From Actinomycetota bacterium (GTDB taxonomy: Bacteria; Actinomycetota; Acidimicrobiia; Acidimicrobiales; Acidimicrobilacustridaceae), in the NCBI GenBank assembly GCA_016185305.1, contig JACPNV010000050.1, positions 7,040-71,039 on the forward strand: DNA of 64,000 nucleotides, written 5' to 3'. Both the position numbers and the translations under genes were made by a program. The notes under the pieces are model-generated. The model did not search any database and was not told the DNA's origin. It saw only the letters and a program-made list of their open reading frames with translations. Shown here in pieces: positions 1 to 31,297 of the stretch. How positions within the stretch are numbered: the first letter of the stretch is position 1; every line of letters starts with the position of its first letter.

Positions 1-1194
1 GAGAGCGGAGAGGTCGGGGTCAGCGTCGCCGATCGAACCAACGAGCGCTGCGAGCACCTCGGTGGCCGTTGCCTCGCCCTCGCCTCGGACGGTTACGTCA
101 ACATGGGGATGCCGACGAAAGTAGTCCTCGATGTCCTCGTCGTACTTCGGCGTGTTCGGTCCGCCGTGGATCGTGATGCTGCCGGGGTGGCGCTCTTTGA
201 CGCGTCGAGAGACCGCGAGGCAGTCCGTATGTGACCAGAGGTAATTGCTGAGGAGAAAGACACCCGGCCTGTCGAGTAGGTGATCGAGTTGCCTGTGATC
301 AACCACCCAGTCGGGCCGCAGATCGTAGTAGTCATTCAGCCGACCGCCCTCGTATATCGACGAATTGGCTAGAATGAGCCCCAATGCAAGAGGAGGGATC
401 GTGCCGTTGAAAGCGACTGGCACCACCTTGACGTTGCCAGCCGGCGCGTCGACAGCGAGGTCCTCCGGGGCGGCATCGCCGCGCTCGCTGATGTTTCGCA
501 GGAGTTGATGCCGCGCCCGAAATGCGGTGACGAATAGTCGTTGGCCACGCTCGCTCGCCGGAACATCGTCGGGGTCGTCCGGGTCGAAGGTGCGCAGCAG
601 GCCGATCGAAAGGAGCCGTCCGGCGAGGTGACCGAACTGGTCGGAGGAGAGCGCCCACCTCCCGGCGTCGTCGCGATGGGTATCGAATGCCTGCTCGCGG
701 GTCGCCGGTCGCTTGCATGCGGCGCACGCCAACACTTCGACTGGAGTCAACGGCACGACGGCACCCCCGCGCAGGGCGACATGCACGAACGCGCCAGATG
801 TCGCCCAGAAGATGGCGGGTGTCTCGACGACGAGCAGCGCGCCGGGAGGTATGTTCGTCTCGACCGGAGTCGGGATCGTCGTGGACGGCTCCGTCGACCA
901 GGGGTGGGGTGCGCGCTCTTGCGCTATCAGGAGATCGCGCGCGTGGAGCTCGCCGACGAAATCGACCAGGCTGTCTTGGTCACATCCGAACTGCTCGGCG
1001 ATCCTGAGGATCACGTCGGCGATGCTCTTGCCCGAGCCGAGTTGTCCGATGAGCTCGAGACGCGGCAGATCAAGAGGGATGGCCACGTGGTCATCGAGGT
1101 TGGGCACACTCAGTCCCGACGGACGCAGTGTCACGGCGAGAACCTGTGACAGCGCCCGCCCCTCATAGGTGGGGGCGTCGCGGAGGACAGACAA
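1..1194 (-). CDS. Partial CDS (runs off the window start): N-terminal part of a cobalamin-binding, class B radical-SAM-type enzyme preceded by two PqqD/RRE-like segments
   Basis: Absent from the ORF track because it has no stop inside the window. My translation of the minus strand is stop-free from about 1194 down to 1. It contains VKVVPVAFNGTIPPLALGLILANS...FLLSNYLWSH...ITIHGGPNTPKYDED...VTVRGEGEATATEVLAAL, the B12-binding domain pattern of class B rSAM enzymes. Upstream lie LDLPRLELIGQLGSGKSIADVILRIAEQFGCDQDSLVDFVGELHARDLLI and a second similar segment, both PqqD-like. Start is uncertain (TTG 1194 or GTG 1134). The CxxxCxxC cluster would lie outside the window. Confidence 0.6.
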   Translation of the reverse strand, partial: MSVLRDAPTYEGRALSQVLAVTLRPSGLSVPNLDDHVAIPLDLPRLELIGQLGSGKSIADVILRIAEQFGCDQDSLVDFVGELHARDLLIAQERAPHPWSTEPSTTIPTPVETNIPPGALLVVETPAIFWATSGAFVHVALRGGAVVPLTPVEVLACAACKRPATREQAFDTHRDDAGRWALSSDQFGHLAGRLLSIGLLRTFDPDDPDDVPASERGQRLFVTAFRARHQLLRNISERGDAAPEDLAVDAPAGNVKVVPVAFNGTIPPLALGLILANSSIYEGGRLNDYYDLRPDWVVDHRQLDHLLDRPGVFLLSNYLWSHTDCLAVSRRVKERHPGSITIHGGPNTPKYDEDIEDYFRRHPHVDVTVRGEGEATATEVLAALVGSIGDADPDLSAL

Positions 1195-1338
1195 CGACTC
1201 GAACCTTCCCGTGTGAAGCAGACAGAAGTATAGGCAGGCGGCCCGAGACGATCGTGGTGGTGGACGTCGGCGCGCCATCGTGTTGGCTACCAGCGATCGG
1301 TTACTCTCGGGCACCTTGTCACCATCTGGAACCATCGA

Positions 1339-2313
1339 ATGCGCGTCGTCGTAACCGGCGGAGCAGGATTCATCGGAGCCAACCTCTGCCGACGCCTGGC
1401 TCGAGCGCACGACGTAATCGCGCTTGACGACCTCTCCACCGGCGATCGTGCGAACCTCGACACCGTCGACGCTCGGCTGATCGTCGGGTCCATCCTCGAT
1501 CCGGCGTCCCTCGACGACGCGTTCGATGGGGTCGAAGCGGTCGTGCACCTGGCGGCCCGACCGTCGGTGCCTCGGTCGCTGGCCGATCCCATGGCGAGCC
1601 ATCTGGCCAACGCGACAGGAACCGTCGAGGTGCTCGAGGCCGCCCGCCGCGCCGCAGGAACCAGCGGCCGCGGGGTGATGCCGCACGTGGTCCTCGCGTC
1701 ATCCTCCTCGGTGTACGGCGCCAACGAGACGCTCCCGAAGCATGAAGACCTCGCACCCGCCCCCTTGAGCCCGTACGCCGCCAGCAAGCTCGCAACGGAG
1801 TCGTACGCGCTCGCGTACCAGCACAGCTTCGGCCTCGATGCCCTGGCCTTTCGCTTCTTCAACGTCTTCGGGCCGCTCCAGAGTGCGGGCCACGCGTATG
1901 CGGCGGTGGTGCCCGCCTTCGTCGACGCCGCGCTCGCCGGCCAGCCGGTCACGATCCACGGCGACGGTCGCCAGAGCCGCGACTTCACGTTCGTCGACAC
2001 GGTCACCGACGTGATCGCCGACGCGGTCGAGCGGCGCGTGACGAGCAGGCGGCCGGTCAACTTGGCGTACGGCTCGCGCACCGACCTCCTGACTGTCGTC
2101 GCGCTGCTCGAGGAGATCCTCGGCGAGCCGTTGCCGGTCCGCCATGTCGACGCCCGTGCGGGCGACGTCCGGCATTCCCAGGCGGACTCGACCCAGCTCC
2201 AGAAGCTGTTCCCCGATGTGACGCCGGTGCCGCTCGAGGCCGGCCTGCGCGCCACGGTCGCCTGGTTCCGCAGCCTCTCCGACGACAGTGGTCCCGGCTT
2301 CGAGCGCCGCTGA
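1339..2313 (+). CDS. NAD-dependent epimerase/dehydratase (UDP-sugar 4-epimerase-like SDR)
   Basis: VVTGGAGFIGANL Rossmann motif; SPYAASKLATE (YxxxK) catalytic motif; 324 aa. Confidence 0.85.
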   Translation: MRVVVTGGAGFIGANLCRRLARAHDVIALDDLSTGDRANLDTVDARLIVGSILDPASLDDAFDGVEAVVHLAARPSVPRSLADPMASHLANATGTVEVLEAARRAAGTSGRGVMPHVVLASSSSVYGANETLPKHEDLAPAPLSPYAASKLATESYALAYQHSFGLDALAFRFFNVFGPLQSAGHAYAAVVPAFVDAALAGQPVTIHGDGRQSRDFTFVDTVTDVIADAVERRVTSRRPVNLAYGSRTDLLTVVALLEEILGEPLPVRHVDARAGDVRHSQADSTQLQKLFPDVTPVPLEAGLRATVAWFRSLSDDSGPGFERR

Positions 2314-2935
2314 CGGCTCGGGGCGCCGGCACCCGCCGTACCGAACCAAGCGTGTGCTCGACCTTGCGGTCCTGGCCGTCGTCGGGCTGCCCGCGGCGCT
2401 CGTCGGCGCCGTGTGCGCGCTCGCGATCAAGCTCACGTCGAAAGGTCCCGTGTTCTTCCGCCAGCTCCGTGTCGGCATGGGCGGCGAGCCGTTCGAGGTG
2501 TACAAGTTCCGCACGATGGTCGATGATGTCAACCCGGTGTTCCCCGATCCCGCCCGCATCACTCCGGTCGGTCGTGTTCTGCGCCGCCTCTCGCTCGACG
2601 AGCTGCCCCAGCTCCTCAACGTGGCGAGGGCAGAGATGAGCGTCATCGGCCCCCGGCCGACCCTTCCCTACCAGGTGGCGCGGTACGACGAGCGCCAAGC
2701 GCACCGGCTCGACGTCCGGCCGGGCCTCACGGGCCTGGCCCAGATCCGTGGACGCAACGCCCTCGACTGGTCGGTCCGCATCGACCACGACCTGGAGTAC
2801 GTCCGCACGCAGTCGCTCCGGCTCGACCTCCAGATCCTGTGGAAGACCGCGGCGGTGGTCGTGTCGGGCGAGGGCGCCGAAGGCCACCCCACCGATGATC
2901 CGCTGGCGACCACCGACGACGAGCCCGGCGAGTAG
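2288..2935 (+). CDS. Bacterial sugar transferase (polyprenyl-phosphate hexose-1-P transferase, WbaP/EpsL C-terminal type)
   Basis: KRVLDLAV TM helix, GPVFFRQLRVGMGGEPFEVYKFRTM, DELPQLLNV..MSVIGPRP motifs. Alternative GTG start at 2354. Confidence 0.85.
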   Translation: MVPASSAADGSGRRHPPYRTKRVLDLAVLAVVGLPAALVGAVCALAIKLTSKGPVFFRQLRVGMGGEPFEVYKFRTMVDDVNPVFPDPARITPVGRVLRRLSLDELPQLLNVARAEMSVIGPRPTLPYQVARYDERQAHRLDVRPGLTGLAQIRGRNALDWSVRIDHDLEYVRTQSLRLDLQILWKTAAVVVSGEGAEGHPTDDPLATTDDEPGE

Positions 2936-2960
2936 CGCATCTGGTGGCGGATGTCGTCCG

Positions 2961-4436
2961 TCAGCGGCGAGATCCGCCACCGGTTCGGTGGACGCGTCCC
3001 GCGACGTCGCGGAGGACCTGATCCCACTGCGCCGCGACCCCGCTGAGGTCGAACTGGTCGAGGCAGGCACGACGAGCGGCCGTCCCCATGTCGTCGCGGT
3101 TCACCACGGCGGTGGCGAGTGCGGCGGTGGTTCCGGGCACGTCGTCGAGCTCGACGAAGATGCCCGTCTCGCCCGCTCGGACGATGTGCGCGATCCCGCC
3201 CACCTTCGTCGTCACCACCGGGCGGCCAGCCAATCCCGCTTCGATCAAAACCGACGGCATGCCCTCGGTGCGGCTGGTGAGGGCGACGACATCGGCAGCG
3301 AGGAGCGCGTCGTCGGGACGGTCGCTGGTGCCGGCGAACACGGCGTCCGCACCCACCGTCGCGGCGAGTGCCTCCAGCCGGTTCCGGTCGGGCCCATCGC
3401 CCACGATGAGGACGGTTGCGTCGTGCATGCGAGCAGCTCCTTCGATGACCTGTCCGACGTTCTTCTGCGGCGACAGGGCTCCGAGGTACACGATCAACGG
3501 GCCGGTTCGGTCGGCCACGCCGAACCGCTGGCGGGCGGCCGCCACGTCCGTCGCGTCGACGACGGGGAAGCGGTCGGTGGGTGCTCCCTTCGGGATGATG
3601 ACGATCCGTTCCGGATCGACCGCGTAGGTGGAGACGAGTGCCGCGGCGATCTCCTCGTAGTACACCGCGACCCGAGCGGCACGACGGAGAGCTGCCCGCA
3701 CGCGAGCGCGCTGATCGGCGCGCTGGCCCCACAGCTGAGGCTCGCCGATGACCCGGTACACGAACGGCGTATCCCGCAGCGCGTGCACGACCGCGGCGGC
3801 GAACAGCGTCTGCCCCCCGTGGGCCACGATGACATCGCAGCGGGGGACGCGGGACACCAGCCGGCTGGTCGCGATGGCGAGACCGGCGCGGCCTGACGAC
3901 AGCGAAGGGACCGGGAAGGTGTGCGCGGCACTCGATCCAGTGATCGCTACCGTCTCGACGTCGACGCCGAACGCGCTGAGGCCGTCTGCGAGGTCGATCC
4001 CGAAGGTCTCGGCTCCGCGCCGGTGGTCGCTGTTCAAGAGGTTGAGAACCCGGAGTGGCGCCGGGCGCGGCGGAGCGGGTGCCGTGACTGACCGGGGGAC
4101 GTGGGGCGGAACCATGTGCACCCGCGCGACGATGTGGCGCGACACGAGCTCATCGAGGAAGGCCTCGATGTCGGCGCGGTGATCGCTCGCTTCGTGATCG
4201 AACCGCTCGTCGAGGGCGTCGACCAGATCGTCGAGCGTGCGCGGAGGCGAAAGCTCGCCGAGAACGGCGATCGCCATGGGGTCGAGCAACGACACGTCGG
4301 CACCCTCGCAGCTCAGCACCAGCCGACCGGTGAGGCTCTCACGCCAGAGCAGATCGGGGCGAACAGCCCAGCGAGCCGCCTCGGGCCGTTCCGCCGCCGG
4401 CCCGACGACATCGGTCTGTTCCACGGCGTAGATCAT
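2961..4436 (-). CDS. GT4-family glycosyltransferase with an N-terminal PqqD/RRE-like domain of about 105 aa
   Basis: N-terminus: WAVRPDLLWRESLTGRLVLSCEGADVSLLDPMAIAVLGELSPPRTLDDLVDALDERF...IEAFLDELVSRHIV (PqqD-family pattern). C-terminus: LIVGDGPDR...LTSRTEGMPSVLIEAGLAGRPVVTTKVGG (GT1/GT4 EX7E region). Confidence 0.75.
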   Translation of the reverse strand: MIYAVEQTDVVGPAAERPEAARWAVRPDLLWRESLTGRLVLSCEGADVSLLDPMAIAVLGELSPPRTLDDLVDALDERFDHEASDHRADIEAFLDELVSRHIVARVHMVPPHVPRSVTAPAPPRPAPLRVLNLLNSDHRRGAETFGIDLADGLSAFGVDVETVAITGSSAAHTFPVPSLSSGRAGLAIATSRLVSRVPRCDVIVAHGGQTLFAAAVVHALRDTPFVYRVIGEPQLWGQRADQRARVRAALRRAARVAVYYEEIAAALVSTYAVDPERIVIIPKGAPTDRFPVVDATDVAAARQRFGVADRTGPLIVYLGALSPQKNVGQVIEGAARMHDATVLIVGDGPDRNRLEALAATVGADAVFAGTSDRPDDALLAADVVALTSRTEGMPSVLIEAGLAGRPVVTTKVGGIAHIVRAGETGIFVELDDVPGTTAALATAVVNRDDMGTAARRACLDQFDLSGVAAQWDQVLRDVAGRVHRTGGGSRR

Positions 4437-4439
4437 GCT

Positions 4440-5297
4440 CTACGGCCGACCGCGTCCGTGCCACCGCATCGCGGCCTCGCCCCCGACCATGGCGGCGATC
4501 AGCAACGCGTACGTCAGCGTCGACACCTGGAGCAGCCGCACCATGCCGGATCGGACGACGCCGGCGCGTGCGATCGCGCCCGAGCCGAGCATGACCGCGG
4601 CTCCGACCACGAGCGCCGGCAACGCACGCGATCCTCGCGGCGCGCGGCTGGCGACCCGAGCCAAGGGCCACACCGCGACGGTTGCGCACATTGCCATCGC
4701 ACCGGCGAACACGACCGGACGACCCGGCGGGGCACCGGTGAGCGCAGCGCCCACGATGGGAACCGCCAGCGCCGCCGACGCCTGGGGAAGTGTCGAAGCC
4801 ATCTTCGGCCAGCCGATGGTGCCGAGCGCGACGAGCGTGACGAAGCTGCCGACGCCCAAGAGCGCGGCCTCGGTGTCGGGCTCGCCGAGCAACAGGCCAA
4901 CCATGACGCCCAGCGCGAGCGCGTAGACGTGCAGCGGCCCCGTGCTGCGGGATGCGAACCACAGCGATCCGGCGACGAGCATCGTCACGAGCCCGGCGAC
5001 CGCCCGCTCGTTCGTGCTCGCGTGCGCGGCGCTGGACAGGCTCATCAAGGTGCCCGCGGCTGCGATCGAGACGATGCCGAGCGCGGGGCGCCTCGGGAAG
5101 CACGTGGCGATGGCGAGGATCGCAACCGCGACGAGCGCGGCCAGTCCCAAGCCGAGGCGAACCAGGCCGACGGTGACGGCGATCGCGACGAGCGCCGGCG
5201 TGCGTTCCTTCACGAAAGGCGGCAACGGGGATCGACGTGATCTCGCGGCCACGGCGACCGTGCCGACAAGCAGCCCGAGGACCAGGTCGGGTCGCAC
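4440..5297 (-). CDS. Polytopic integral membrane protein of unknown function (possibly polymerase/ligase-like)
   Basis: 285 aa, about 8 hydrophobic segments. Sits 3 nt upstream of the GT4 start and downstream of capD-like on the same strand. No motif recognised. Confidence 0.5.
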   Translation of the reverse strand: MRPDLVLGLLVGTVAVAARSRRSPLPPFVKERTPALVAIAVTVGLVRLGLGLAALVAVAILAIATCFPRRPALGIVSIAAAGTLMSLSSAAHASTNERAVAGLVTMLVAGSLWFASRSTGPLHVYALALGVMVGLLLGEPDTEAALLGVGSFVTLVALGTIGWPKMASTLPQASAALAVPIVGAALTGAPPGRPVVFAGAMAMCATVAVWPLARVASRAPRGSRALPALVVGAAVMLGSGAIARAGVVRSGMVRLLQVSTLTYALLIAAMVGGEAAMRWHGRGRP

Positions 5298-5368
5298 GGT
5301 TGCCTCGACGAGCGCCGTCTTCGGCGAGCCGGCGAGCGGGGGAGACGCCAGCGCGGCGAGCGGAGCGC

Positions 5369-7306
5369 TCAGGCGTCGGTCTCCGGCGCCGCGGCCGGCT
5401 GCTCCTGCGCCGCGCCCGCGTCCGGCGTTTCGTGGCTCCCGTACGCCAGAGCCTTCAAGAGCGCGATGAGCTCGTCGCCGCCGGCGTCGCCAACAGTGGC
5501 CGCCACCGCGCCGATCTTGAGGGGTGGGACCGTGACATGGGCGATCAGCGGGTGCGCGGGGCGTTGGTCGATCTCGCCCTCGCCCAGCAGGACCTCGTGC
5601 AGCTTCTCGCCCGAGCGAAGGCCGGTGTACACGATCTCGACGGGCCGCTCGGCGGTGGCCGCGAAGCGGCGAGCGACATCATCGATCTTGACCGGCTCGC
5701 CCATGTCGAACACGAGCGCCTCGCCCGCTCGCCCGACCGCTCCCGCCTGGATGACGAGCTCGACCGCCTCCTCGACGGTCATGAAGAACCGCGTCACCTC
5801 CGGGTCGGTCACCGTGATGGGTCCGCCCGCATCGACCTGCGCCCTGAACGCGGTGAGCACGGAGCCTCTGCTGCCGAGCACGTTTCCGAAGCGCACGCTG
5901 AGATAGTTGCCGTCCGTGTCTGCCGATGACGCCGCGGTCAGCCGCTCGGCGATGCGCTTGCTGTAGCCGAGCACGCTCGTCGGGTCGGCCGCCTTATCAG
6001 TCGAGATGTTGACGAACCGCTCGACTCCGCAGGCCGTGGCCACGGTGAGCAGGTTCTCGGTGCCGTGGACGTTGGTCTTGACCGCCTCGCCCGGGTGGAG
6101 TTGCAGCAGGGGGAGATGCTTCAGGGCCGCGGTGTGGAACACCACCTGGGGTTGGTGGAGCTTGAAGACCTCCAGCACGCGATCGGCGTCGCGGATGTCG
6201 CAGACAACCAAGTTGGGGTCGTCGAGCAGCGCCCGGCCCTCGATCAGCATCTGGACACCATGCAAGGCCGACTCGTCGCGATCGAGCATCACGAGCTTGT
6301 CCGGCGCGAACTTCGCGAGCTGGTGGCAGAGCTCGCTGCCGATGGACCCGCCGGCGCCGGTGACGAGCACCCGCTTCCCTGTGATGTAGCCGGCGATCGA
6401 CTCGATGTCGGTGTTGATGACGTGCCGCCCGAGCAGGTCGGCCTCGGTCACCGGGCGAATGTCGGAGATGCCGATGACAGCGCCGAACATCTCGGAGAGG
6501 GGCGGGAGGACGGCCACCTTGAGCTTGGCTTGCAGCGCGAGATCGGTGAGCTCACGGAGCAGCTCGGGTGGTGCGCTCGGAATGGCGATGACCATCATCT
6601 CCGCGCTGTGCGCTTTGGCCGCCTCGGCGATGGAGCTGCGGTCACCTTCCACGGAGATGCCGAGGACGCGGAGCGAGCTCTTCGCGGGGTTGTCGTCGAG
6701 CAGCGCGACGGGGACGTAGGGGCTCTCGGGGTTGCGTTGCATCGAGGTGACCACCTGGACACCGCCCTCGCCCGCACCGAACACGAGCACAGGCGTGCCC
6801 TTGTCCTTGTTGGGGCGCAGGCGGCGATCGAGGAGGAGGCGCCAGACGTACCGCGAGCCTGCCATGAGCATGAGAGCGATGAACCCGCCGATGAAGACGA
6901 CGCTCGTCGGGATGAAGTACTGCGAGTTCAGGCGGTTCACGACCGCCAGGGCGATCGTCGTGACCATGACCGCCCGGACCAGGTTGGCCACCTCATCGAA
7001 GCTGCCGTACCGGAACCGGCCGCGGTACAAGCCGGTGGTGGCGCCGGTCAGGAGTTGGACGATCGCCGCGATGGTCGCGGCGGCGAACATGCCGCGGATG
7101 GTGAACCGCCCCCAGTCGTCGGCGGTCCAGTCGAACTCGAAGCGCAACACGTCCGCCAGGTAGATGCCGAGGAACCACGACGTGGTGTCGATGCCCCCCT
7201 GGATCACCGCACGATGGCGCTCGAGCTTGGACCCGGCCCGCGTCACGAGCGGTATCGCCTCTCGTCGGTTGGCTCGGCCTCCCATTGCTTCGAGTTCCTC
7301 CCCCAA
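5369..7306 (-). CDS. Polysaccharide biosynthesis protein, CapD/WbpM/PglF-type membrane-anchored NDP-sugar 4,6-dehydratase
   Basis: N-terminal TM helices, VLVFGAGEGG then VLVTGAGGSIGSEL Rossmann motifs, DKAADPTSVLGYSKR (YxxxK). Confidence 0.85.
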   Translation of the reverse strand: MGEELEAMGGRANRREAIPLVTRAGSKLERHRAVIQGGIDTTSWFLGIYLADVLRFEFDWTADDWGRFTIRGMFAAATIAAIVQLLTGATTGLYRGRFRYGSFDEVANLVRAVMVTTIALAVVNRLNSQYFIPTSVVFIGGFIALMLMAGSRYVWRLLLDRRLRPNKDKGTPVLVFGAGEGGVQVVTSMQRNPESPYVPVALLDDNPAKSSLRVLGISVEGDRSSIAEAAKAHSAEMMVIAIPSAPPELLRELTDLALQAKLKVAVLPPLSEMFGAVIGISDIRPVTEADLLGRHVINTDIESIAGYITGKRVLVTGAGGSIGSELCHQLAKFAPDKLVMLDRDESALHGVQMLIEGRALLDDPNLVVCDIRDADRVLEVFKLHQPQVVFHTAALKHLPLLQLHPGEAVKTNVHGTENLLTVATACGVERFVNISTDKAADPTSVLGYSKRIAERLTAASSADTDGNYLSVRFGNVLGSRGSVLTAFRAQVDAGGPITVTDPEVTRFFMTVEEAVELVIQAGAVGRAGEALVFDMGEPVKIDDVARRFAATAERPVEIVYTGLRSGEKLHEVLLGEGEIDQRPAHPLIAHVTVPPLKIGAVAATVGDAGGDELIALLKALAYGSHETPDAGAAQEQPAAAPETDA

Positions 7307-7517
7307 AGACGTCTCCCGATCTGGTGGTTCGGTTGTCGCAGCTCCAGAAGGGTGCGGCGCGGAACCCCGTTCCCGCCGAGGCGAGCACTCTAGCGCGCCT
7401 CATCCATATGAATGAGCGAAAGGGAGGCGGTCCGAATCTTCCGGCGGCGCCCACTAACATCTTGAGGTCGCGGCCGGGCCGACCGTTCCGCCATCATCGA
7501 GGTGTCACCTTGGAGCT

Positions 7518-9932
7518 TTGTTGGAGACCCTGAACACCAGCCGGGCCCGAAGCGGCAGGAACGGCCACAAGGGCGGCACGTCGTCGGCGGAGCAACGAAG
7601 GTCTCGTGCTGCGCGCTCGGGCCAGCACACCGCACGCGCCGAGCGGATCGCCATCTACTGCATCGCGGCGGCGGCGGCGGTCGGCGGTGCGCTCGCGGCC
7701 GGAGCTCCGACGGCCACGACCCTTCTCAACGTGCTGTTCCGTGCCGGCCTCGCGTTCGGGGTCACGCAAGCGGCGTCGCGGGCGCGGCGGTGGTCGTGGC
7801 TGGTGATGAGCGGGGTCGCGGTGATCGCCGCGGAAGGGGCGTGGCTCGCGGTGGCCGCGGTCGCGCTGGTGCTCGCCGTCGGATTCTGCTTCCTCGTCCG
7901 CCGCCGGGTCTACGGAGCGGCAGTCGGTGCGCTGGCCATCCAGTCGTTGCTCCGGTTGCCTCCGCTCGATGAGGCGGTCGGCTCCGCGTTGGTCGCGGCG
8001 GTGGCGGTCGTCCCGGTGCTTGCGTCGGCGTATCTCTCCTCCCCGCGCCGCATCCGGCGCCGGGCCAAGCGGGCCGTGCTGGCGGCGATCGCCGTGGCCG
8101 GGCTGGGCGCGGCGGTGTTGGGGATCGCCGTGCTCTTCGCCTATTCGTCCACGCGCTCGGCCGCCGCGCAGACCAAAGCTGGCGTCGCGAGCATCCGTGA
8201 CGGCAAGACGCCGCAGGCGACCCAGCAACTGCAATCGGCGGAGCAGAGCTTCGCCAGCGCGCATGGCGTGCTGTCGGGCTGGTGGATGTGGCCGGCGAAG
8301 GTCGTCCCGATCGTGTCCTTGCAGGCCGGCGCGTTCGACCAGGTGGCCGAGCAAGGAGCGGCGGTGGCGGGTGCGGCGTCGGAGGTGACGAGGACGGTCG
8401 ACTACGAGTCGCTTCGCCAGCAGAAGGGCCAGGTGAACGTGGCCAAGATCAAAGAGGCGCAGGCTCCGTTGGCGCAGGCGGCCTCCGCCCTCGACGGCGC
8501 GCTCGAGCGAACCCGAGCCGTGAGGAGCGCGTGGTTGGCGCCGCCGCTCGCGGGCGGGATCGACGAGTTCGAAGGTGAGCTCGTGAAGGTGCGGGGCGAG
8601 ACGGTCCTCGCCGCCCAGGCATCACAGGTGCTCCCCGGGATGCTCGGAGCCGACGGCACACGCCGGTACTTCGTCGCGTTCATCACGCCGGCTGAGGAGC
8701 GCGGGCTCGGTGGCTTCATGGGCAACTGGGCTGAGCTCACCGCGAGCGACGGCAAGATCGCGATCACGGCCAGTGGCCGCGCCGCCAACCTGAACAGCCG
8801 CTCGAACCCCGACGCGATGGTCGTCACGTCCGACGCGGACTACGCGGCGCGCTACGGGAAGTACCGGCCGGGCAGGTACATGCAGGACGTGACGCTCTCC
8901 CCCGACCTGCCCACCGTGACCAAGGTGATCGCCGAGCTCTACCCGAAGCTCGGCGGTTCGCAGATCGACGGTGTGCTCGCCATCGACCCGTATGGTCTGG
9001 CTGCCTTGCTCGAGCTCACCGGGCCGATCAAGGTGAAGGGCCTGGACACGCCGCTCAGCGCGAAGAACGCGGTGGAGATCCTCACCAAGCAGCAGTACTT
9101 CGACTTCGACTCGCGGGCCGAACGCACAGACTTCCTCGACGAGGCAGGCAAGCGGACGTTCACCGCGCTGTTCAAGGGCGACCTCCCGGGGCCGCGCAAG
9201 CTGTCCGACGTGCTGAGCCCGGCCGTCGACGCGCAGCGCGTCCGGTTCTGGAGCCTCCGCCCTGAGGACCAGCCGCTGCTGAAGGCCCTCGGCGTTGACG
9301 GCACCTTCAATCAGGGAAGCGGTGACGACTTCTTCTCGCTCCGCACCCAGAACAAGAGCAACAACAAGATCGACATCTTTCTGGAACGGAAGGTCCGCTA
9401 CGACGTGACGATCGATCCCGTCACGAGGACAGCCAGCGCCGACGTCACGATCACGCTCTACAACGGGGCGCCCGCCAGCGGCCTGCCGGACGCGATCATC
9501 GGAAGCAACGACCAGCAGCTTGCGAAGGGTACGAACGCGATCAACCTGTCGTTCTACTCACCACTCGGCCTGCGCGAGGCGCGCATCGACGACACACCAA
9601 CAGGGATGGAGTACCAGCGAGAGCTCGGTCTGTCGGTGTACTCGCGCTACCTCGAGCTCCCGCCGGGCGGCACGGCGACCATCAAGCTCTCGCTCTTCGG
9701 TTCGCTGCGCGGCGACGACGACGGCGCCTACCAGCTCGACGTGGCCGCGCAGCCGATGGTGAACGCCGACCAGGTCGTGGTCTCGGCCAAGGTGAACCGT
9801 CCGTACCGGTTCGCGGCCAAGACGATGGGGGACGGCCCCGGGCTTGCCGTCGACCAGGGCGGGGCTGACGCGTTCGCGGCCTTCACACCGGTTCGCGAGG
9901 TGGATCTGGCCGTCGATGTGGTCGAACGTTGA
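7518..9932 (+). CDS. DUF4012 domain-containing membrane protein
   Basis: N-terminal TM helices. GTRRYFVAFITPAEERGLGGFMGNWAELTASDGKI and DGVLAIDPYGLAALLELTGPI are typical of DUF4012 proteins in actinobacterial envelope loci. Start is uncertain (TTG). Confidence 0.7.
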   Translation: MLETLNTSRARSGRNGHKGGTSSAEQRRSRAARSGQHTARAERIAIYCIAAAAAVGGALAAGAPTATTLLNVLFRAGLAFGVTQAASRARRWSWLVMSGVAVIAAEGAWLAVAAVALVLAVGFCFLVRRRVYGAAVGALAIQSLLRLPPLDEAVGSALVAAVAVVPVLASAYLSSPRRIRRRAKRAVLAAIAVAGLGAAVLGIAVLFAYSSTRSAAAQTKAGVASIRDGKTPQATQQLQSAEQSFASAHGVLSGWWMWPAKVVPIVSLQAGAFDQVAEQGAAVAGAASEVTRTVDYESLRQQKGQVNVAKIKEAQAPLAQAASALDGALERTRAVRSAWLAPPLAGGIDEFEGELVKVRGETVLAAQASQVLPGMLGADGTRRYFVAFITPAEERGLGGFMGNWAELTASDGKIAITASGRAANLNSRSNPDAMVVTSDADYAARYGKYRPGRYMQDVTLSPDLPTVTKVIAELYPKLGGSQIDGVLAIDPYGLAALLELTGPIKVKGLDTPLSAKNAVEILTKQQYFDFDSRAERTDFLDEAGKRTFTALFKGDLPGPRKLSDVLSPAVDAQRVRFWSLRPEDQPLLKALGVDGTFNQGSGDDFFSLRTQNKSNNKIDIFLERKVRYDVTIDPVTRTASADVTITLYNGAPASGLPDAIIGSNDQQLAKGTNAINLSFYSPLGLREARIDDTPTGMEYQRELGLSVYSRYLELPPGGTATIKLSLFGSLRGDDDGAYQLDVAAQPMVNADQVVVSAKVNRPYRFAAKTMGDGPGLAVDQGGADAFAAFTPVREVDLAVDVVER

Positions 9933-10002: not shown

Positions 10003-10548
10003 ATGGAGGTCAACGTGATCCGGAAGGCGGCAGTCGTCGTAGTCTCCTTATTCACCCTTCTCGGCCTCGGCTTGGTCCTCGCCCCCGCGGCGTCGGCGCA
10101 GTACAACCCGAACCCGTGCGGGTTCATCATCACGCCGACCACGGTGGCCCCGGGCCAGACCATCAACATCGTCGGGCAGAACTTCCCGCCGAACCAGCCG
10201 GTCACCTTCACCCTCGCCCAGTTCACCATCGCGACCGCCACCGCTGACGCCAACGGCAACGTGAACGCCATCGGTACGATTCCGGCGGAGCTTCCCGACG
10301 GCACCTACACGATCTCGGTCGACTGTCTCGGCGTCAGCTCGACGCAATCGGTCAACGTGAGTTCGGCGAGCGCCGCGCAGAACCCGGGGGGCTCCACGGC
10401 CGGATCGCTGGCGGTCACGGGCGCCGATGTCCTGCCGTTCGTCAAGGCCGCGCTCGTCCTCCTGGCGCTGGGCGGGTTGCTCGTGATCGCGACCCGTCGA
10501 CGCGGTGGTCGCCACCATGACCGCGACGCCGAACGCGTCGCCGGCTGA
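10003..10548 (+). CDS. Secreted cell-wall-anchored surface protein with an LAXTG sorting signal
   Basis: Signal peptide ...LVLAPAASA/QY. C-terminal LAVTG + hydrophobic helix + RRRGGR tail. ATG 10003 (or GTG 9994) lies downstream of AAGGAG at 9980-9985. Confidence 0.75.
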   Translation: MEVNVIRKAAVVVVSLFTLLGLGLVLAPAASAQYNPNPCGFIITPTTVAPGQTINIVGQNFPPNQPVTFTLAQFTIATATADANGNVNAIGTIPAELPDGTYTISVDCLGVSSTQSVNVSSASAAQNPGGSTAGSLAVTGADVLPFVKAALVLLALGGLLVIATRRRGGRHHDRDAERVAG

Positions 10549-10786
10549 CCCGGGCTAGCCGGTTCCGACGGGGCGCTGTTCCGAAGATCGGTGGCGACCC
10601 GCCGATCGCGTGGGGTCGCATTGCCGCCGATGGGGCGACATGTGCCGCAGGACGTCGTGTCGGTCTGCGGGCCATCGGCCCGTTCGGAGGCCCTGCTCGC
10701 GTTGGCCCGGCTCGGTACCCTGGTAGTGCAGCGGCAGGCCAGCCGCGTGAGCTCGGGAGTCACCCACGACCACCTATTACGACGTC

Positions 10787-11488
10787 TTGGGCGTAGCGGT
10801 CGAGAGCAGCCACGAGGAGATCAAGCGCGCGTTCACGGAACGGGCGTTGCGGTACCGCCCCGACCGCCAGCCTGACCCAAACGCGGCCGAGCAGGCCGCG
10901 TTTCGTCGCTCAGAGATCAACGAGGCGTGGGCGACGTTGCGGAACCCGGCGGCCCGCGCTGCCTACGACGCAACGCTCAAGCGTGACGCAGAGACGAAGG
11001 TGGCGGCGCTGACGGGCGGGCTCGCGGGCACCGCCGACGGCTATGAGCGGGCGGCGCGCACCTTCCGCCCTGGTGCCGGCGACCGCTTCGACGGTACGTC
11101 GTGGTTCAGCGAGCCCGAGGTGGCCGACGTCGAGCCATTGGACGAAGCCACGGACGAACCGGCGACACAGGCGCGGAGGCAGCGTTGGCACCTCGGTCCG
11201 CTCGCGATCGGTGGCGTGGTGCTGATCGCCGTCCTCGTGCTGTTGCTGCGAACGAACAACTACGACGATCGACCGAACACGGTGCAGACCCGTGAGCGCT
11301 TCGCTCCCGGCGTGTGCGTCCTGGTCGTGCCGGGCGAGAACGGTGAGGCCCGGCCCACGGAAGTGCCGTGCTCGGCGCCGCGCACCGGCAAGGTCCGCCT
11401 AAAGGTCGAGTTCCCCCGGCAGTGCCCGATGCAGACCGTCAACGTCGTGATCGCGGCGGAGCAGATGTCGCTCTGCCTCGACCCGTGA
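10787..11488 (+). CDS. Membrane-anchored J-domain-like protein with degenerate HPD (RPD)
   Basis: LGVAVESSHEEIKRAFTERALRYRPDRQP...INEAWATLRNPAARAAYD; TM helix LAIGGVVLIAVLVLLL. An in-frame stop at 10748 limits the start to TTG 10787, clipping the usual YYDVLGV start. Confidence 0.6.
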   Translation: MGVAVESSHEEIKRAFTERALRYRPDRQPDPNAAEQAAFRRSEINEAWATLRNPAARAAYDATLKRDAETKVAALTGGLAGTADGYERAARTFRPGAGDRFDGTSWFSEPEVADVEPLDEATDEPATQARRQRWHLGPLAIGGVVLIAVLVLLLRTNNYDDRPNTVQTRERFAPGVCVLVVPGENGEARPTEVPCSAPRTGKVRLKVEFPRQCPMQTVNVVIAAEQMSLCLDP

Positions 11489-11625: not shown

Positions 11626-13692
11626 GTGCCTCGCTACAGGAGCGGTGAAGAGACCACGATGACGGCCACGACCAAGAAGACTGCGGTTCCGCCCCCGGCG
11701 GGGCCGCCACCTCCCCTGTTCGTCCGCCGGTCCGACGTCGATGCGCTCAAGGCGCTCGCCACGCTGCTCGTGATCCTCAGCCTGGCGGGTGTACCGGGAC
11801 TCGGTGGTGGGTTCGTGGGGTACGACGTCTTCTTCGTCGTCGTCGGGTTCCTCGTGGTCCGGCGGTTGTACAGCGAGGTCATGGACGAGCGCGAGCTCGA
11901 CATCGTGGCGTTCTTCAAGGCGCGTTTCGGGCGGCTCTTCCCCACGATGGCCGCCGTCTCGGTGGCGGCGTTGGTCGTGTCGATCGTGGTCCTGTCCCGG
12001 TGGGTGCTTCGAGAGGTTGCCGCCGAGGCGCTGTCGTCGGTGGTCTTCCTCTCCAACGTGGTGATGGCCCGGCAAGCGGGTGGCTTCTTCGCTGCCGATG
12101 TGCGCGACAGCCCGCTGCTCGTGACCTGGAGCGTCAGCACTGTCGGCCAGTTCGTGGTGCTGGCCGGGCTCCTGTTCCTCTTGACGATGCCGCTGCTCGA
12201 GGAAGGCCGCAGCCGGGCCGTCGTGCGCCCTGTGCTGCTGTTCGTCTCGATGGTCGGCTTCGTCGTCTTCGGTGCCGTCGCCGGGTACCTCACCTATGCG
12301 TACCGTTCGTGGGCCTTCTTCACGCTTCCGGGGCGACTCTTCGAGTTCCTCGCAGGGGCCGTGCTGGCGATGCTTGCCCTACCCGAGCCGTTCCGCAGCC
12401 GTACGGCCCGGATGGCCATGACGATCGTGGGGCTCGTCGTCATCAGCGGAGCGGCCATCGTCGCGAGGAACAGTGCGCTCTACCCGTTTCCCTGGGGATT
12501 GGTGCCAGTTGCCGGGGCGGTCCTCGTACTCGCCGCTGGTGATGAGCGCGACGGACGATCGTCGCCCTTCACCGCTCTGCTCGACCATCTGCCGCTTCAG
12601 ACCGTCGCTCGGTTCAGCTACGGGTGGTACCTCACGTTCTTCCCCACCATCGTCCTGCTGGACGCCGCGCTGAACAACGACGGGTTGCCGGTCCGGCTGG
12701 CTGGTCTCGCCGGTTCCCTGGTCTTGTGCGCGGGGGCAACCCTGCTGGCTGGCCACACCCCGTGGGCCGGACGGGTTGTTCAGCTCTCTCCGAAGCGCGC
12801 GTTCCTGTCGGCCGGCGCGGTCGTCCTCGTCGTCGCGCTGATCGCCGCTGGCGCCGCGCTGATCGGTGAGCCTCCCGATGCGTACGCGTCGGTCCGGGGC
12901 CAGATCGAAGCGGCCGAGGCAGGCCCCACGTACGAGTGCTCGTCGGAAGCGACGACCTCGAGCGGCATCAAGTACTGCCGGAGTGGACAGCTCGACGCGC
13001 CGGTGTCGACCGTGATGCTGTTGGGTGATGGTCGGGTCAAGACGTGGAAGGGTGCGATGGCGGGTACCGCGTTCGACGCCACGGTGCAGCTCGTCGACCG
13101 CTACCTCGAGGGGTGCCCCGTCACCGATATGCGTGTCACTCGCAACGACGCCCAGGCCGAAGCATGTGCGGCCTTCCGGCGTGAATCGCTTCAGCTCATC
13201 CGCGATATCAAGCCCAGGGCCGTGTTCGTCGCCCAACGCCTGGATTACGGCAGCAACATCGTGGCCCCGGACGGCGCACCTCTGGGAAGAGCTCAAAGGC
13301 AGGACCAGTGGCGCGACAAGACGGGCGAGTTCTTCGCGGCAGTGGCGCGCGAAGGGGCCCGTCCGATCTCGATCGAGGAGCCTCCCGTCGTTCCAACCGA
13401 TCCGATCGCGTGCATGCGCGAGAACAAAGCGGTGACGCCGTGTGCGTTCTCCTTGACACAAGGCCGGCAGCCGATCAAGGACCTCCAGTTCGCGGAAGCA
13501 TCGGCTCGCAAGGCCAATGGTTCGGTCCCCCTCCTGAGCGTGACCGGCCAGTTCTGCTCTACGGAGACCGAGACCTGCGCGGTGGTGGCCAACGACACGC
13601 TGGTGTACGGCTCGGCAGACGAGTTGGCGCCCAGGTTCGTGGCCGAGCAGCGGGGCCAGATCAGCAAGCTGCTCGCGCGCGCGGGCGCTTGA
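11626..13692 (+). CDS. Acyltransferase family 3 (OafA/YrhL-type) membrane protein with a C-terminal SGNH-like domain
   Basis: About 10 TM helices with DALKALATLLV... and VTWSVSTVGQF patterns, then a soluble C-terminal domain of about 270 aa. 688 aa, typical of O-acetyltransferase fusions. Confidence 0.75.
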   Translation: MPRYRSGEETTMTATTKKTAVPPPAGPPPPLFVRRSDVDALKALATLLVILSLAGVPGLGGGFVGYDVFFVVVGFLVVRRLYSEVMDERELDIVAFFKARFGRLFPTMAAVSVAALVVSIVVLSRWVLREVAAEALSSVVFLSNVVMARQAGGFFAADVRDSPLLVTWSVSTVGQFVVLAGLLFLLTMPLLEEGRSRAVVRPVLLFVSMVGFVVFGAVAGYLTYAYRSWAFFTLPGRLFEFLAGAVLAMLALPEPFRSRTARMAMTIVGLVVISGAAIVARNSALYPFPWGLVPVAGAVLVLAAGDERDGRSSPFTALLDHLPLQTVARFSYGWYLTFFPTIVLLDAALNNDGLPVRLAGLAGSLVLCAGATLLAGHTPWAGRVVQLSPKRAFLSAGAVVLVVALIAAGAALIGEPPDAYASVRGQIEAAEAGPTYECSSEATTSSGIKYCRSGQLDAPVSTVMLLGDGRVKTWKGAMAGTAFDATVQLVDRYLEGCPVTDMRVTRNDAQAEACAAFRRESLQLIRDIKPRAVFVAQRLDYGSNIVAPDGAPLGRAQRQDQWRDKTGEFFAAVAREGARPISIEEPPVVPTDPIACMRENKAVTPCAFSLTQGRQPIKDLQFAEASARKANGSVPLLSVTGQFCSTETETCAVVANDTLVYGSADELAPRFVAEQRGQISKLLARAGA

Positions 13693-28419: not shown

Positions 28420-28584
28420 TCAGACGCGTGCGCGGAGGCCGAGCAGGTTGGTGCCGCACCACGCGACGCTGACCGAGCTGTTGTCCTTCTTGCCGCACTT
28501 GTAGACGCTGATCGAGCTGCGGGCTTCGAGCGGGCTGCCGGCGCCAGCGCCGGACATCGCCTGGAGTTCGAGAACGGATGCCAT
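28420..28584 (-). CDS. lanA: Class III lanthipeptide precursor peptide (54 aa)
   Basis: MASVLELQAMSGAGAGSPLEARSSISVYKCGKKDNSSVSVAWCGTNLLGLRARV. Has a VLELQ leader motif and two S-x2-S-x3-C motifs (SSISVYKC, SSVSVAWC). AAGGAGG lies 8 nt upstream of the ATG, which sits 5 nt after the LanKC stop. It is hidden inside track ORF 28420..28659. Confidence 0.8.
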   Translation of the reverse strand: MASVLELQAMSGAGAGSPLEARSSISVYKCGKKDNSSVSVAWCGTNLLGLRARV

Positions 28585-28589
28585 GGGAT

Positions 28590-31193: not shown

Positions 31194-31297
31194 GGTGGGC
31201 TCCGGTTGCGGGATGCGACTCACGAATGAGGCGTGCCGCCGCCGTTCCACTCGATGGCACACCTCGGCCGGCGCCGGGCGATCGATCTCGGTGCGCG

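What the first reader, a model, noticed from the sequence alone, without database searches (positions are those of the whole stretch)
1..4436. PqqD/RRE-like peptide-binding domains fused to a GT4 glycosyltransferase and to a B12-type radical-SAM N-terminus inside a glycan locus
The GT4 enzyme (2961-4436) begins with a PqqD-family-like domain of about 105 aa: WAVRPDLLWRESLTGRLVLS...LLDPMAIAVLGEL...LDDLVDALDERF...IEAFLDELVSRHIV.

The partial minus-strand gene at 1-1194 is not in the ORF track. It has two such segments followed by a cobalamin-binding domain typical of class B radical SAM enzymes.

PqqD-type RiPP recognition elements normally dock a peptide substrate. Two fusions in a locus otherwise made of sugar-nucleotide and envelope-polysaccharide genes suggest peptide- or protein-directed glycosylation/alkylation, or a RiPP-like glycopeptide pathway. 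An alternative is a repurposed PqqD fold, as in the HPr-rel-A exopolysaccharide systems. No obvious precursor ORF is visible in the window. The co-located LAXTG surface protein or something upstream of the window could be the target.
Basis: partly seen in the sequence, partly recalled or inferred. Interest (0 to 1): 0.7.

Follow-up and report, generated by a model that had tools for sequence, protein, structure and literature searches.

The report
Peptide-docking domains fused to glycan enzymes
Two enzymes at the edge of a cell-envelope sugar-polymer locus, a glycosyltransferase and a vitamin-B12 radical-SAM methylase, really do carry the small docking domains that normally hold peptide substrates, but no peptide substrate is visible and the two fusions look like independent events, so a hidden glycopeptide pathway remains unproven.

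Summary
The GT4 gene (2961-4436, minus) has a Pfam-significant PqqD domain (41.7 bits against a cutoff of 23.4), then a proline-rich linker and a GT-B catalytic domain.

The partial gene at 1-1194 (minus) encodes two tandem beta3-alpha3 modules. Pfam does not detect them. Profile-profile comparison, an AlphaFold model and Foldseek all relate them to PqqD/RRE domains. A cobalamin-binding domain follows and aligns to TokK.

Full-length relatives are 860-930 aa. All carry both modules, and 24 of 25 open frames have a CxxxCxxC motif. Their closest solved relatives are the iterative C-methylases TokK and CysS.

The RiPP reading is only partly supported:
- The PqqD-GT4 fusion is a singleton among 1.84 billion representative proteins.
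- The rSAM family occurs in Acidimicrobiia, Microthrixaceae, Halioglobus/Haliea-type Gammaproteobacteria and Binatia, with no conserved neighbour, no nearby PqqD gene and no conserved small ORF.
- It often forms tandem arrays of 2-6 copies, sometimes beside glycan-tailoring genes.
- The window leaves no room for a precursor within 1-14 kb.

The nearest stand-alone PqqD relative that could be placed in its genomic context lies in an HPr-rel-A-like cassette inside a polysaccharide-type locus.

Verdict: a real and unusual architecture of unknown function, and a new variant of known kinds. Interest is moderate.

The parts
1..1194 (-). First 398 codons of a class-B (cobalamin-dependent) radical SAM enzyme. 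The gene runs off the left end of the window. Relatives are 860-930 aa.
   Evidence: Translation. Homologues. Full-length family. TokK and CysS are the closest solved structures. KedN5-family NCBIfam scores of 230-280 bits fall below the cutoff of 700.
910..1146 (-). RRE/PqqD-like module 1 of the rSAM (aa 17-95)
   Evidence: AF2 strands 19-24 and 27-30, helices 43-51, 58-69 and 73-85. hhalign against the PqqD family gives 94.7% probability, E 5.6e-8. No Pfam hit.
580..843 (-). RRE/PqqD-like module 2 of the rSAM (aa 118-205)
   Evidence: AF2 strands 120-149 and helices 151-196. hhalign against module 1 gives 92%, E 5.8e-7. Against PqqD it gives only 34%, E 4e-4. Foldseek RRE hits.
1..432 (-). 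Cobalamin-binding Rossmann domain of the rSAM (aa 255-398, cut by the window edge)
   Evidence: phmmer against TokK 7kdx residues 24-138, E 1.7e-11. Weak PF02310 match.
1339..2313 (+). NAD-dependent sugar-nucleotide epimerase/dehydratase (TviC/GalE-like), transcribed divergently from the rSAM
   Evidence: PF01370 at 188 bits. TviC model at 162 bits, below its cutoff.
2288..2935 (+). Polyprenyl-phosphate glycosyl-phosphotransferase (small Bac_transf type)
   Evidence: PF02397 at 190.7 bits. TIGR03025 at 239.7 bits, below its 295.55-bit cutoff.
2961..4436 (-). PqqD-GT4 fusion glycosyltransferase, 491 aa
   Evidence: Pfam PqqD plus Glyco_transf_4 plus Glycos_transf_1. The GT-B part is modelled at pLDDT above 95. 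BshA, MshA, PimB and WaaG are the closest solved structures.
4122..4373 (-). PqqD domain of the GT4 (aa 22-105). A proline-rich linker follows (aa 106-127, nt 4056-4121).
   Evidence: PF05402 at 41.7 bits. 36% identity over 88 aa to the stand-alone PqqD P0139. NCBIfam PqqD-type chaperone models all score below cutoff.
4440..5297 (-). Multi-pass membrane protein of unknown family, immediately upstream of the GT4 in the same operon (possible polymerase or ligase)
   Evidence: Hydrophobic translation. No Pfam or NCBIfam hit.
5369..7306 (-). Membrane-anchored PglF/CapD-type UDP-sugar 4,6-dehydratase
   Evidence: PF02719 at 325 bits.
7518..9932 (+). DUF4012 protein
   Evidence: PF13196 at 126.5 bits.
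10003..10548 (+). Small LAVTG sortase-substrate surface protein with an Ig-like domain. No evidence links it to the fusions.
   Evidence: Motif scan. Translation. NF058582 at 28.9 bits against a cutoff of 27.
11626..13692 (+). Putative acyltransferase with a C-terminal SGNH domain of the AT3-fused type. Last glycan-type gene before unrelated metabolism genes.
   Evidence: Only PF19040 SGNH, 53.5 bits, at aa 446-669 was matched. No AT3 domain (PF01757) was detected, so the acyltransferase call is an inference.

Best explanation
The left 14 kb of the window is the right-hand end of a cell-envelope glycan locus of a high-GC actinobacterium. Judging from the best relatives, it is Acidimicrobiia-like.

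Two enzymes in the locus have independently acquired PqqD/RRE-type winged-helix modules:
(i) A retaining-type GT4 glycosyltransferase has one N-terminal PqqD domain on a proline-rich tether.
(ii) A TokK/CysS/KedN5-like cobalamin-dependent radical SAM enzyme has an invariant N-terminal pair of RRE-like modules.

Inferred mechanism:
- The modules act as docking domains that hold an extended polypeptide segment by beta-strand addition, the only binding mode documented for this fold.
- The partner is a protein (an acceptor or carrier protein, or another pathway component) that is not a classical short precursor encoded next door.
- The GT4 transfers a sugar from an NDP-sugar.
- The rSAM uses 5'-deoxyadenosyl radical H-abstraction and methyl-cobalamin to methylate an unactivated carbon, possibly iteratively as in TokK and CysS. 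In some relatives' loci O-methylated sugars are a plausible kind of substrate.

Shown: domain architectures, family membership at superfamily level, distribution and genomic contexts.
Inferred: what the modules bind, what the enzymes modify, and whether the two fusions cooperate.
For: - PqqD domain in the GT4 above Pfam's threshold.
- Two RRE-like modules in the rSAM, supported by AF2, Foldseek and hhalign.
- Among the ORFs of the 28 loci searched, the module HMMs' top-scoring hits are all members of this rSAM family.
- The core is homologous to TokK (E 4e-72) and CysS (E 3e-63), with a CxxxCxxC motif in 24 of 25 relatives.
- Glycan genes surround both fusions in the window.
- Relatives' islands contain PhyH dioxygenases, TylF and class-I methyltransferases, a sulfatase, a GT2 fused to a rhamnosyl-O-methyltransferase-like domain, MBOAT and a carrier protein.
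- No conserved small ORF or neighbour.
- The RRE modules are the fastest-evolving part of the protein: about 30-35% identity between paralogues of one array against 61% for the core. This fits diversified partners rather than one shared leader.
- A stand-alone relative of the GT4's PqqD domain lies in a polysaccharide-type HPr-rel-A-like cassette.
Against: - No binding partner is identified.
- Every characterised PqqD/RRE binds a short precursor peptide, so the absence of one may only mean it lies left of the window or is too small or divergent to detect.
- Foldseek E-values are weak (0.04 or worse), and module 2 relates to PqqD only through module 1.
- The PqqD part of the GT4 was modelled with low confidence in the full-length prediction, probably because the alignment was poor there.
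- RRE modules can be vestigial; my recollection, not checked here, is that the ThcOx modules are such a case.
- The O-methyl-sugar substrate idea rests on analogy alone.
Confidence: 0.45

Rival explanations
1. Classical RiPP or glycopeptide pathway. A short precursor peptide, encoded left of the window or elsewhere, is bound through its leader by both RRE-bearing enzymes. It is C-methylated by the rSAM and glycosylated by the GT4. The surrounding sugar genes supply the NDP-sugar.
For: - All characterised PqqD-family proteins are peptide chaperones (NCBIfam names them so; RRE literature PMC7470986, PMC12710340).
- Two RRE-bearing enzymes within 3 kb follows typical RiPP logic.
- RRE-glycosyltransferase fusions have been listed as candidate new RiPP clusters.
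- The cluster is cut by the window edge, so a precursor could be off-window.
- Mycofactocin is a precedent for a PqqD-like chaperone, an rSAM and a glycosyltransferase working together in actinobacteria (PMC3023750).
Against: - No room for a precursor in window 1-14 kb.
- No conserved small ORF in or around 25 rSAM loci, several of which have the rSAM flush against its neighbours.
- No protease or exporter typical of RiPPs next to the fusions.
- The closest rSAM relatives sit among housekeeping genes.
- The catalytic core is closest to small-molecule methylases (TokK, CysS, KedN5), and RiPP methylase models score much lower.
- The GT4 lies in an operon with a PglF-like dehydratase and a membrane protein, as in ordinary glycan assembly.
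Confidence: 0.2
2. Repurposed or vestigial fold with no polypeptide ligand. The modules serve as structural, oligomerisation or membrane-proximal adaptor domains, or bind a non-peptide ligand. Both enzymes act directly on lipid-linked or polymeric glycan, or on a small molecule.
For: - Glycan-type contexts and lack of precursors.
- PqqD genes recur in polysaccharide-type loci without visible precursors (L086).
- By my recollection, not checked here, the double N-terminal RRE-like modules of ThcOx are dispensable; ThcOx is the top Foldseek hit.
- Low sequence conservation of the modules.
Against: - Both modules are retained in every family member detected across several phyla. That argues for function, although it does not say which.
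- No non-peptide ligand is documented for this fold.
Confidence: 0.25
3. The PqqD-GT4 modifies the class III lanthipeptide encoded about 24 kb away in the same window (precursor 28420-28584, LanKC 28590-31337).
For: - A bona fide RiPP precursor with an LELQ-type leader and two SxxSxxxC motifs lies beside a RamC-like synthetase in the window.
- Glycosylated class III lanthipeptides exist (NAI-112, from my own knowledge, not checked here).
Against: - Fourteen kilobases of unrelated genes separate the two regions: a transporter, an MFS protein, acyl-CoA dehydrogenase, a TetR regulator and an AMP-ligase.
- Class III leaders are recognised by LanKC itself, not by PqqD-type RREs (my own knowledge, not checked here).
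- The GT4 is in an operon with glycan-assembly genes.
Confidence: 0.05

Closest known systems
TokK / ThnK / CysS / KedN5 clade of cobalamin-dependent radical SAM C-methyltransferases
   Same: The B12-binding Rossmann domain plus the radical SAM core are homologous. An L027 family member aligns to TokK 7kdx at E 4e-72 over residues 255-663, and to CysS 9n1b at E 3e-63. The window copy aligns to TokK residues 24-138. KedN5 is the best NCBIfam model. The CxxxCxxC motif is present in relatives.
   Different: This family has an extra N-terminal region of about 250 aa with two RRE-like modules. It scores 230-280 bits against a KedN5 cutoff of 700, so it is not a member. It is not found in carbapenem-, cystobactamid- or enediyne-type clusters. 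It forms tandem arrays of up to six copies. A 2026 review of B12-rSAM structures does not mention RRE domains.
PqqD / RiPP recognition elements (PqqD, lasso B1 proteins such as TbiB1, MftB)
   Same: The GT4 N-terminus passes the Pfam PqqD threshold. The rSAM modules share the beta3-alpha3 topology and have profile-level similarity.
   Different: No cognate precursor peptide and no RiPP core enzymes are nearby. The domain is fused to a GT4 and to a class-B rSAM. All specific NCBIfam chaperone models score below cutoff.
ThcOx (cyanobactin oxidase), which has two N-terminal RRE-like domains
   Same: It has a tandem pair of RRE-like modules ahead of a catalytic domain. It is the top Foldseek hit, aligning across both modules over 218 columns.
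   Different: The match is very weak (E 0.04, rmsd 15 A). The catalytic domain is unrelated (an FMN oxidase). ThcOx lies in a canonical RiPP cluster.
RRE-glycosyltransferase fusions reported by RRE-Finder and the 2025 structure-based RRE survey
   Same: An RRE-type domain is fused to a glycosyltransferase, and this was flagged as a possible new RiPP architecture.
   Different: The glycosyltransferase family named in the 2025 survey is GT2 (PF00535). Here the partner is GT4 (PF00534/PF13439) inside a glycan-assembly operon. No other example of this particular fusion was found.
HPr-rel-A system (TIGR04352 HprK-related kinase A, TIGR04353 PqqD family chaperone, NTP_transf_5)
   Same: The stand-alone relative P0139 of the GT4's PqqD domain (36% identity) lies in such a cassette. 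The gene order there is Wzc-like tyrosine kinase, PqqD, NTP_transf_5, HprK_rel_A-like, a second PqqD fusion, a methyltransferase and UDP-glucose dehydrogenase, with sulfotransferases nearby.
   Different: The window contains no HprK-like or NTP_transf_5 gene. TIGR04353 scores only 19.7 bits against a cutoff of 35. The system itself is uncharacterised, and no paper was found on it.
Mycofactocin pathway (MftB PqqD-like chaperone, MftC rSAM, MftF glycosyltransferase)
   Same: It is an actinobacterial precedent for a PqqD-type chaperone, a radical SAM enzyme and a glycosyltransferase acting on one peptide-derived product (PMC3023750).
   Different: MftC is an rSAM-SPASM enzyme, not a B12 enzyme. 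MftF is a GT2. MftB is a separate protein. A precursor, MftA, is always adjacent. None of these signatures is present here.

Membership tests
PqqD family (Pfam PF05402), GT4 N-terminus | Score above Pfam's gathering threshold over most of the 67-position model | tested here: met
   41.7 bits against 23.4, model positions 5-67, aa 41-103. 38 bits on the isolated N-terminus.
PqqD family (Pfam PF05402), rSAM N-terminal modules | Detectable by the Pfam or a PqqD-family HMM | tested here: not met
   No Pfam hit at E 10. A custom PqqD HMM does not hit the family at E 1. Only profile-profile and fold similarity were found.
RiPP recognition element (structural definition) | Three-stranded beta-sheet followed by three helices (winged helix), similar to solved RREs | tested here: inconclusive
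   The AF2 topology fits both rSAM modules, with pLDDT of about 90 or more over most of their folded parts. The best Foldseek hits are mostly RRE proteins, but all have E of 0.04 or worse. The GT4 PqqD part was poorly modelled.
RiPP recognition element (functional definition) | Binds the leader of a precursor peptide | not testable with these tools
   No candidate precursor was identified. A binding assay is needed.
RiPP biosynthetic gene cluster | A short precursor gene co-located with the modifying enzymes | tested here: not met
   None in window 1-14 kb. None conserved in or around 25 family loci. The off-window left flank is unseen.
Class B (cobalamin-dependent) radical SAM enzymes | N-terminal cobalamin-binding Rossmann domain | tested here: met
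   Window aa 268-385 align to TokK residues 24-138, E 1.7e-11. PF02310 alone is below threshold at 23.9 bits against 32.1.
Class B (cobalamin-dependent) radical SAM enzymes | CxxxCxxC radical SAM cluster motif | tested here: inconclusive
   The motif lies beyond the window edge for this gene. It is present in 24 of 25 homologous open frames and in P0003, P0004, P0005, P0008 and P0009.
KedN5 family (NCBIfam NF033712) | Score at or above the curated cutoff of 700 bits | tested here: not met
   188-278 bits for the longer relatives, partial model coverage.
GT4 glycosyltransferases | Glyco_transf_4 N-domain plus Glycos_transf_1 C-domain (GT-B fold) | tested here: met
   PF13439 at 41.3 bits, PF00534 at 88.2 bits and PF13692 at 89.9 bits, all above cutoff. 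The AF2 GT-B part has pLDDT above 95.
HPr-rel-A system | PqqD-type protein together with HprK-related kinase A and an NTP_transf_5 nucleotidyltransferase | tested here: not met
   tblastn of the L086 cassette proteins against the window finds only the PqqD domain. TIGR04353 is below cutoff.

The most novel reading that the evidence does not exclude
RRE-type docking modules are used outside RiPP biosynthesis to recruit tailoring enzymes to a protein-anchored or protein-templated envelope glycan. Here those enzymes are a GT4 and arrays of TokK/CysS-like B12 radical SAM methylases. Alternatively, the modules recruit the enzymes to specific cellular proteins. Either case would define a new class of protein-directed C-alkylation and glycosylation in Acidimicrobiia, Microthrixaceae, Halioglobus/Haliea-type Gammaproteobacteria and Binatia.
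Probability: 0.15. Interest if true: 0.8.

Novelty: new variant of a known kind. Interest (0 to 1): 0.5.

Why it matters
RRE/PqqD domains are the main class-independent handle for mining ribosomal peptide natural products. Cobalamin radical SAM enzymes perform some of the hardest alkylations known.

A conserved family of about 870 residues joins a tandem RRE-like pair to a TokK/CysS-like core. It occurs without visible precursors and forms arrays of up to six copies, sometimes in glycan-tailoring islands. There are two possible readings:
- It is a blind spot of RiPP mining, with precursors encoded elsewhere or protein substrates.
- The RRE fold has a second life in envelope-polymer biosynthesis.

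Either result would change how RRE hits in polysaccharide loci are interpreted. It would also point to new alkylated glycans or proteins. The single PqqD-GT4 fusion is less weighty on its own.

Tried and rejected
Attempts to get the sequence left of the window:
- Exact look-up of the GT4 from the window reference failed.
- The identical protein P0016 sits on a 5.9-kb contig that ends inside the sugar-transferase gene.
- The first genome-contig scan with the single protein found nothing.
- The source genome therefore appears absent from the collections, and the rSAM gene could not be completed.

Searches that gave nothing useful:
- A word-indexed search with the N-terminal alignment A2 returned nothing, not even its own members. 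I treat this as a sensitivity failure, not as evidence.
- Pfam on the isolated rSAM modules gave no hit.
- A custom PqqD HMM against all ORFs of 28 loci hit only the window GT4.
- RRE-module HMMs gave top hits only in the rSAM family.
- No Rfam family, including the cobalamin riboswitch, reaches its gathering score in 1-32 kb.
- No promoter or terminator signal above background in 1-7.6 kb.
- Literature searches for HPr-rel-A, and for NTP_transf_5 with PqqD, returned nothing.

Structure and small-ORF checks:
- Full-length AF2 of the GT4 fusion gave pLDDT of 26-72 for the PqqD part, because the global alignment scattered the short PqqD sequences. It adds nothing on domain packing.
- The small ORF 10555-10773 (minus) was rejected as a precursor. 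It has an arginine-rich, non-coding-like composition and partly overlaps the DnaJ gene.
- Small-ORF clusters c15 and c16 in relatives' loci turned out to be antisense frames of further rSAM copies.

Ideas considered and rejected:
- The rSAM-SPASM neighbours are not sulfatase maturases. Only generic rSAM/SPASM models match.
- The 387-aa PqqD fusion of L086 is not a GT4 relative.

Full report
**What is in the sequence**

The window has a high G+C content of 65-72%. Its first 14 kb is the end of an envelope-glycan locus.

Gene order in this stretch:
- A partial gene on the minus strand at 1-1194. It starts at a TTG at 1194, 8 nt after GGAAGG.
- A sugar-nucleotide epimerase/dehydratase at 1339-2313 (plus), transcribed divergently.
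- A small Bac_transf phosphoglycosyl transferase at 2288-2935 (plus).
- A minus-strand operon that converges on them. It contains a PglF/CapD-like 4,6-dehydratase (5369-7306), a multi-pass membrane protein with no family match (4440-5297) and the GT4 (2961-4436).
- A DUF4012 protein at 7518-9932.
- A small LAVTG sortase-substrate protein at about 10003-10548.
- A DnaJ-domain protein.
- A putative acyltransferase at 11626-13692; only its C-terminal SGNH domain of the AT3-fused type (PF19040) was matched.

From 13.7 kb onward the genes are unrelated metabolism and transport.

**Checking the observation: the GT4**

- The 491-aa protein matches Pfam PqqD at residues 41-103 (E 1.5e-10, 41.7 bits against a gathering score of 23.4). 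It also matches the two GT4 halves.
- The isolated N-terminus still scores 38 bits.
- The PqqD part aligns over 88 residues at 36% identity with a stand-alone 97-aa PqqD protein.
- A proline-rich stretch of about 22 residues links it to a GT-B domain that AlphaFold models at pLDDT above 95.
- Third-position G+C is the same in both parts, 0.82 and 0.84.
- An identical protein is called on a 5.9-kb contig in another public assembly (Logan, SRR12113392). If that data set is not the window's own source, which I could not check, this argues that the fusion is real and not an assembly artefact.

**Checking the observation: the partial rSAM**

- Residues 268-385 align to the cobalamin-binding domain of TokK (E 1.7e-11).
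- Pfam sees nothing in the first 250 residues.
- An AlphaFold model on eight homologues has mean pLDDT 74.6, with about 90 or more over most of the folded parts of both modules. It gives two modules, each with strands followed by three helices, at residues 19-85 and 120-203.
- Foldseek's best PDB matches are mostly RRE-bearing RiPP proteins: ThcOx, MibB, TbiB1, TbtB, TigE, PqqD and MccB. The E-values are weak, 0.04 or worse.
- I cut both modules out of a 23-sequence family alignment for profile-profile comparison:
  - Module 1 against a PqqD-family alignment: 94.7% probability, E 5.6e-8.
  - Module 1 against module 2: 92%, E 5.8e-7.
  - Module 2 against PqqD: only 34%, E 4e-4.
- The "two PqqD-like segments" are therefore real as a fold-level and profile-level relationship. 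They are not members of Pfam PqqD.

**The off-window part**

I could not retrieve it. A second genome scan with the family alignment gave 25 loci that cover the N-terminal region.
- Their open frames are 860-930 aa.
- 24 of 25 carry one CxxxCxxC motif at about residue 445-575, for example NRGCPYGCTFCDWGS.
- The window copy stops at residue 398.
- A full-length member matches TokK (E 4e-72, residues 255-663) and CysS (E 3e-63). These are the only solved relatives.
- The best NCBIfam model is KedN5, at 188-278 bits, far below its cutoff of 700. RiPP methylase models score 50-65 bits.

**How common are the fusions, and do they travel together?**

The GT4 fusion:
- An exhaustive phmmer search with the GT4's first 125 residues against 1.84 billion representatives gave 32 hits.
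- Apart from the protein itself, 28 are stand-alone proteins of 86-146 aa. The other three are long proteins with short, fragmentary matches.
- Among the 120 best GT4 relatives, only the identical protein carries PF05402.
- The closest GT4, at 59% identity, lies in an ordinary glycan locus with no PqqD.
- The PqqD-GT4 fusion is thus a singleton.

The rSAM family is a coherent group found in Acidimicrobiia and Acidimicrobiales, Microthrixaceae, Halioglobus/Haliea-type Gammaproteobacteria, Binatia and others.
- Among the ORFs of these loci, HMMs of modules 1 and 2 give top hits only in this family.
- A PqqD HMM finds no PqqD gene in 28 loci.
- Clustering all neighbours shows no conserved partner.
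- The three closest relatives sit among acyl-CoA dehydrogenase, aquaporin, H+-pyrophosphatase, DnaJ, metallo-beta-lactamase and lipase genes.
- Other loci are tailoring islands with PhyH dioxygenases, TylF and class-I methyltransferases, a sulfatase, rSAM-SPASM proteins, a GT2 fused to a rhamnosyl-O-methyltransferase-like domain, MBOAT, a phosphopantetheine carrier protein and an acyltransferase_3.
- No conserved small ORF flanks the gene, and in several loci it abuts its neighbours.
- The family forms tandem arrays: six copies in L021, four in L010, three in L009 and two in several others.
- Between paralogues of one array, the RRE modules are 30-35% identical against 61% for the core.

**Where the GT4's PqqD domain may come from**

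Its stand-alone relative P0139, from an Acidimicrobiia MAG, is the closest one I could place in a genomic context (several better-scoring hits sit on contigs too short to show neighbours). The gene order there is a Wzc-like tyrosine autokinase, PqqD, NTP_transf_5, a 503-aa protein, an HprK-related-kinase-A-like protein (106 bits), a 387-aa protein with a second PqqD domain, a methyltransferase and UDP-glucose dehydrogenase, with sulfotransferases nearby.

This is an HPr-rel-A-type cassette inside a polysaccharide-type locus, again without an obvious precursor. The window has none of the other cassette genes. A second relative, P0143, precedes a 2321-aa FG-GAP/Big_13 protein and a ScmC / rSAM-SPASM / NTP_transf_5 set.

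**Interpretation**

The architecture is established. The function is not.

I favour a docking role for the modules on a polypeptide partner that is not a classical adjacent precursor. The GT4 would carry out ordinary NDP-sugar transfer. The rSAM would carry out TokK/CysS-like cobalamin-dependent C-methylation, possibly iterative. My confidence in this is 0.45.

The rivals are:
- A true RiPP or glycopeptide pathway with its precursor beyond the window edge (0.2).
- A repurposed or vestigial fold with no polypeptide ligand (0.25).
- Modification of the class III lanthipeptide encoded at 28.4 kb (0.05).

The adjacency of the two fusions may be coincidental, because neither fusion is found with the other anywhere else.

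**Comparison with what is known**

- RRE-glycosyltransferase fusions have already been listed as candidate new RiPP architectures (PMC7470986). The 2025 survey names GT2, PF00535 (PMC12710340).
- A 2026 review of B12 radical SAM structures does not mention RRE domains.
- Tandem RRE-like modules are known from ThcOx, the top Foldseek hit.
- Mycofactocin is the actinobacterial precedent for a PqqD-like chaperone, an rSAM and a glycosyltransferase, but it differs in every component.

I therefore rate this as a new variant of known kinds: a rare GT4 fusion, and an unannotated family of double-RRE TokK/CysS-like enzymes.

**Verdict**

- Observation: confirmed.
- Interpretation: partly supported.
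- Interest: 0.5.
- The most valuable follow-up is the rSAM family rather than the single GT4 fusion.

Noticed in passing
window 28420-31337 (minus strand): A class III lanthipeptide cluster. A RamC-like LanKC (RamC_N at 248.9 bits, plus a kinase domain and LANC_like) is followed by a roughly 54-aa precursor, MASVLELQAMSGAGAGSPLEARSSISVYKCGKKDNSSVSVAWCGTNLLGLRARV. The precursor has an LELQ-type leader motif and two SxxSxxxC motifs. A large AAA_16 regulator-like gene lies at 32617-35817.
   Followed up: partly
L021:5358-20056; L010:7608-17633; L009:3841-12613: The double-RRE B12 radical SAM family forms same-strand tandem arrays of six copies (L021) and four copies (L010); L009 has three adjacent copies, two on one strand and one divergent. 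Copies within an array are about 60% identical in the core and about 30% identical in the RRE modules. The window shows only the first copy at its edge, so more copies may lie to the left.
   Followed up: partly
L086:8032-17086: An Acidimicrobiia HPr-rel-A-like cassette lies inside a polysaccharide-type locus. Its gene order is a Wzc-like tyrosine kinase, PqqD, NTP_transf_5, an HprK_rel_A-like protein, a 387-aa protein with a second PqqD domain, a methyltransferase and UDP-glucose dehydrogenase, with sulfotransferases nearby. No precursor-sized gene is visible.
   Followed up: partly
window 1-1194 against 1339-9932: The rSAM fragment has a lower third-position G+C (0.76) than the neighbouring glycan genes (0.84-0.90). 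The first 2 kb has 65.9% G+C against about 71% next door. This hints that the rSAM gene was acquired more recently.
   Followed up: no
L002:10001-12585; L003:10001-12562; L029:9965-12399; L049:10512-12591: Several relatives of the rSAM are split into two or three frames in their assemblies. The out-of-frame C-termini of P0001, P0002 and P0005 are examples. These may be sequencing-error frameshifts or real pseudogenes; I did not distinguish the two.
   Followed up: no
window 10751-11488 and L008:1749-2381: A DnaJ-domain protein with a C-terminal membrane segment lies in the window's glycan locus. Another DnaJ-domain protein lies just upstream of one of the closest rSAM relatives. This may be coincidence.
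   Followed up: no
window 37905-40289 and 59604-60944: Two c-di-GMP signalling genes are present: a PAS-GGDEF-EAL protein and a GGDEF protein. Such genes often regulate exopolysaccharide production, but no link to the locus was examined.
   Followed up: no
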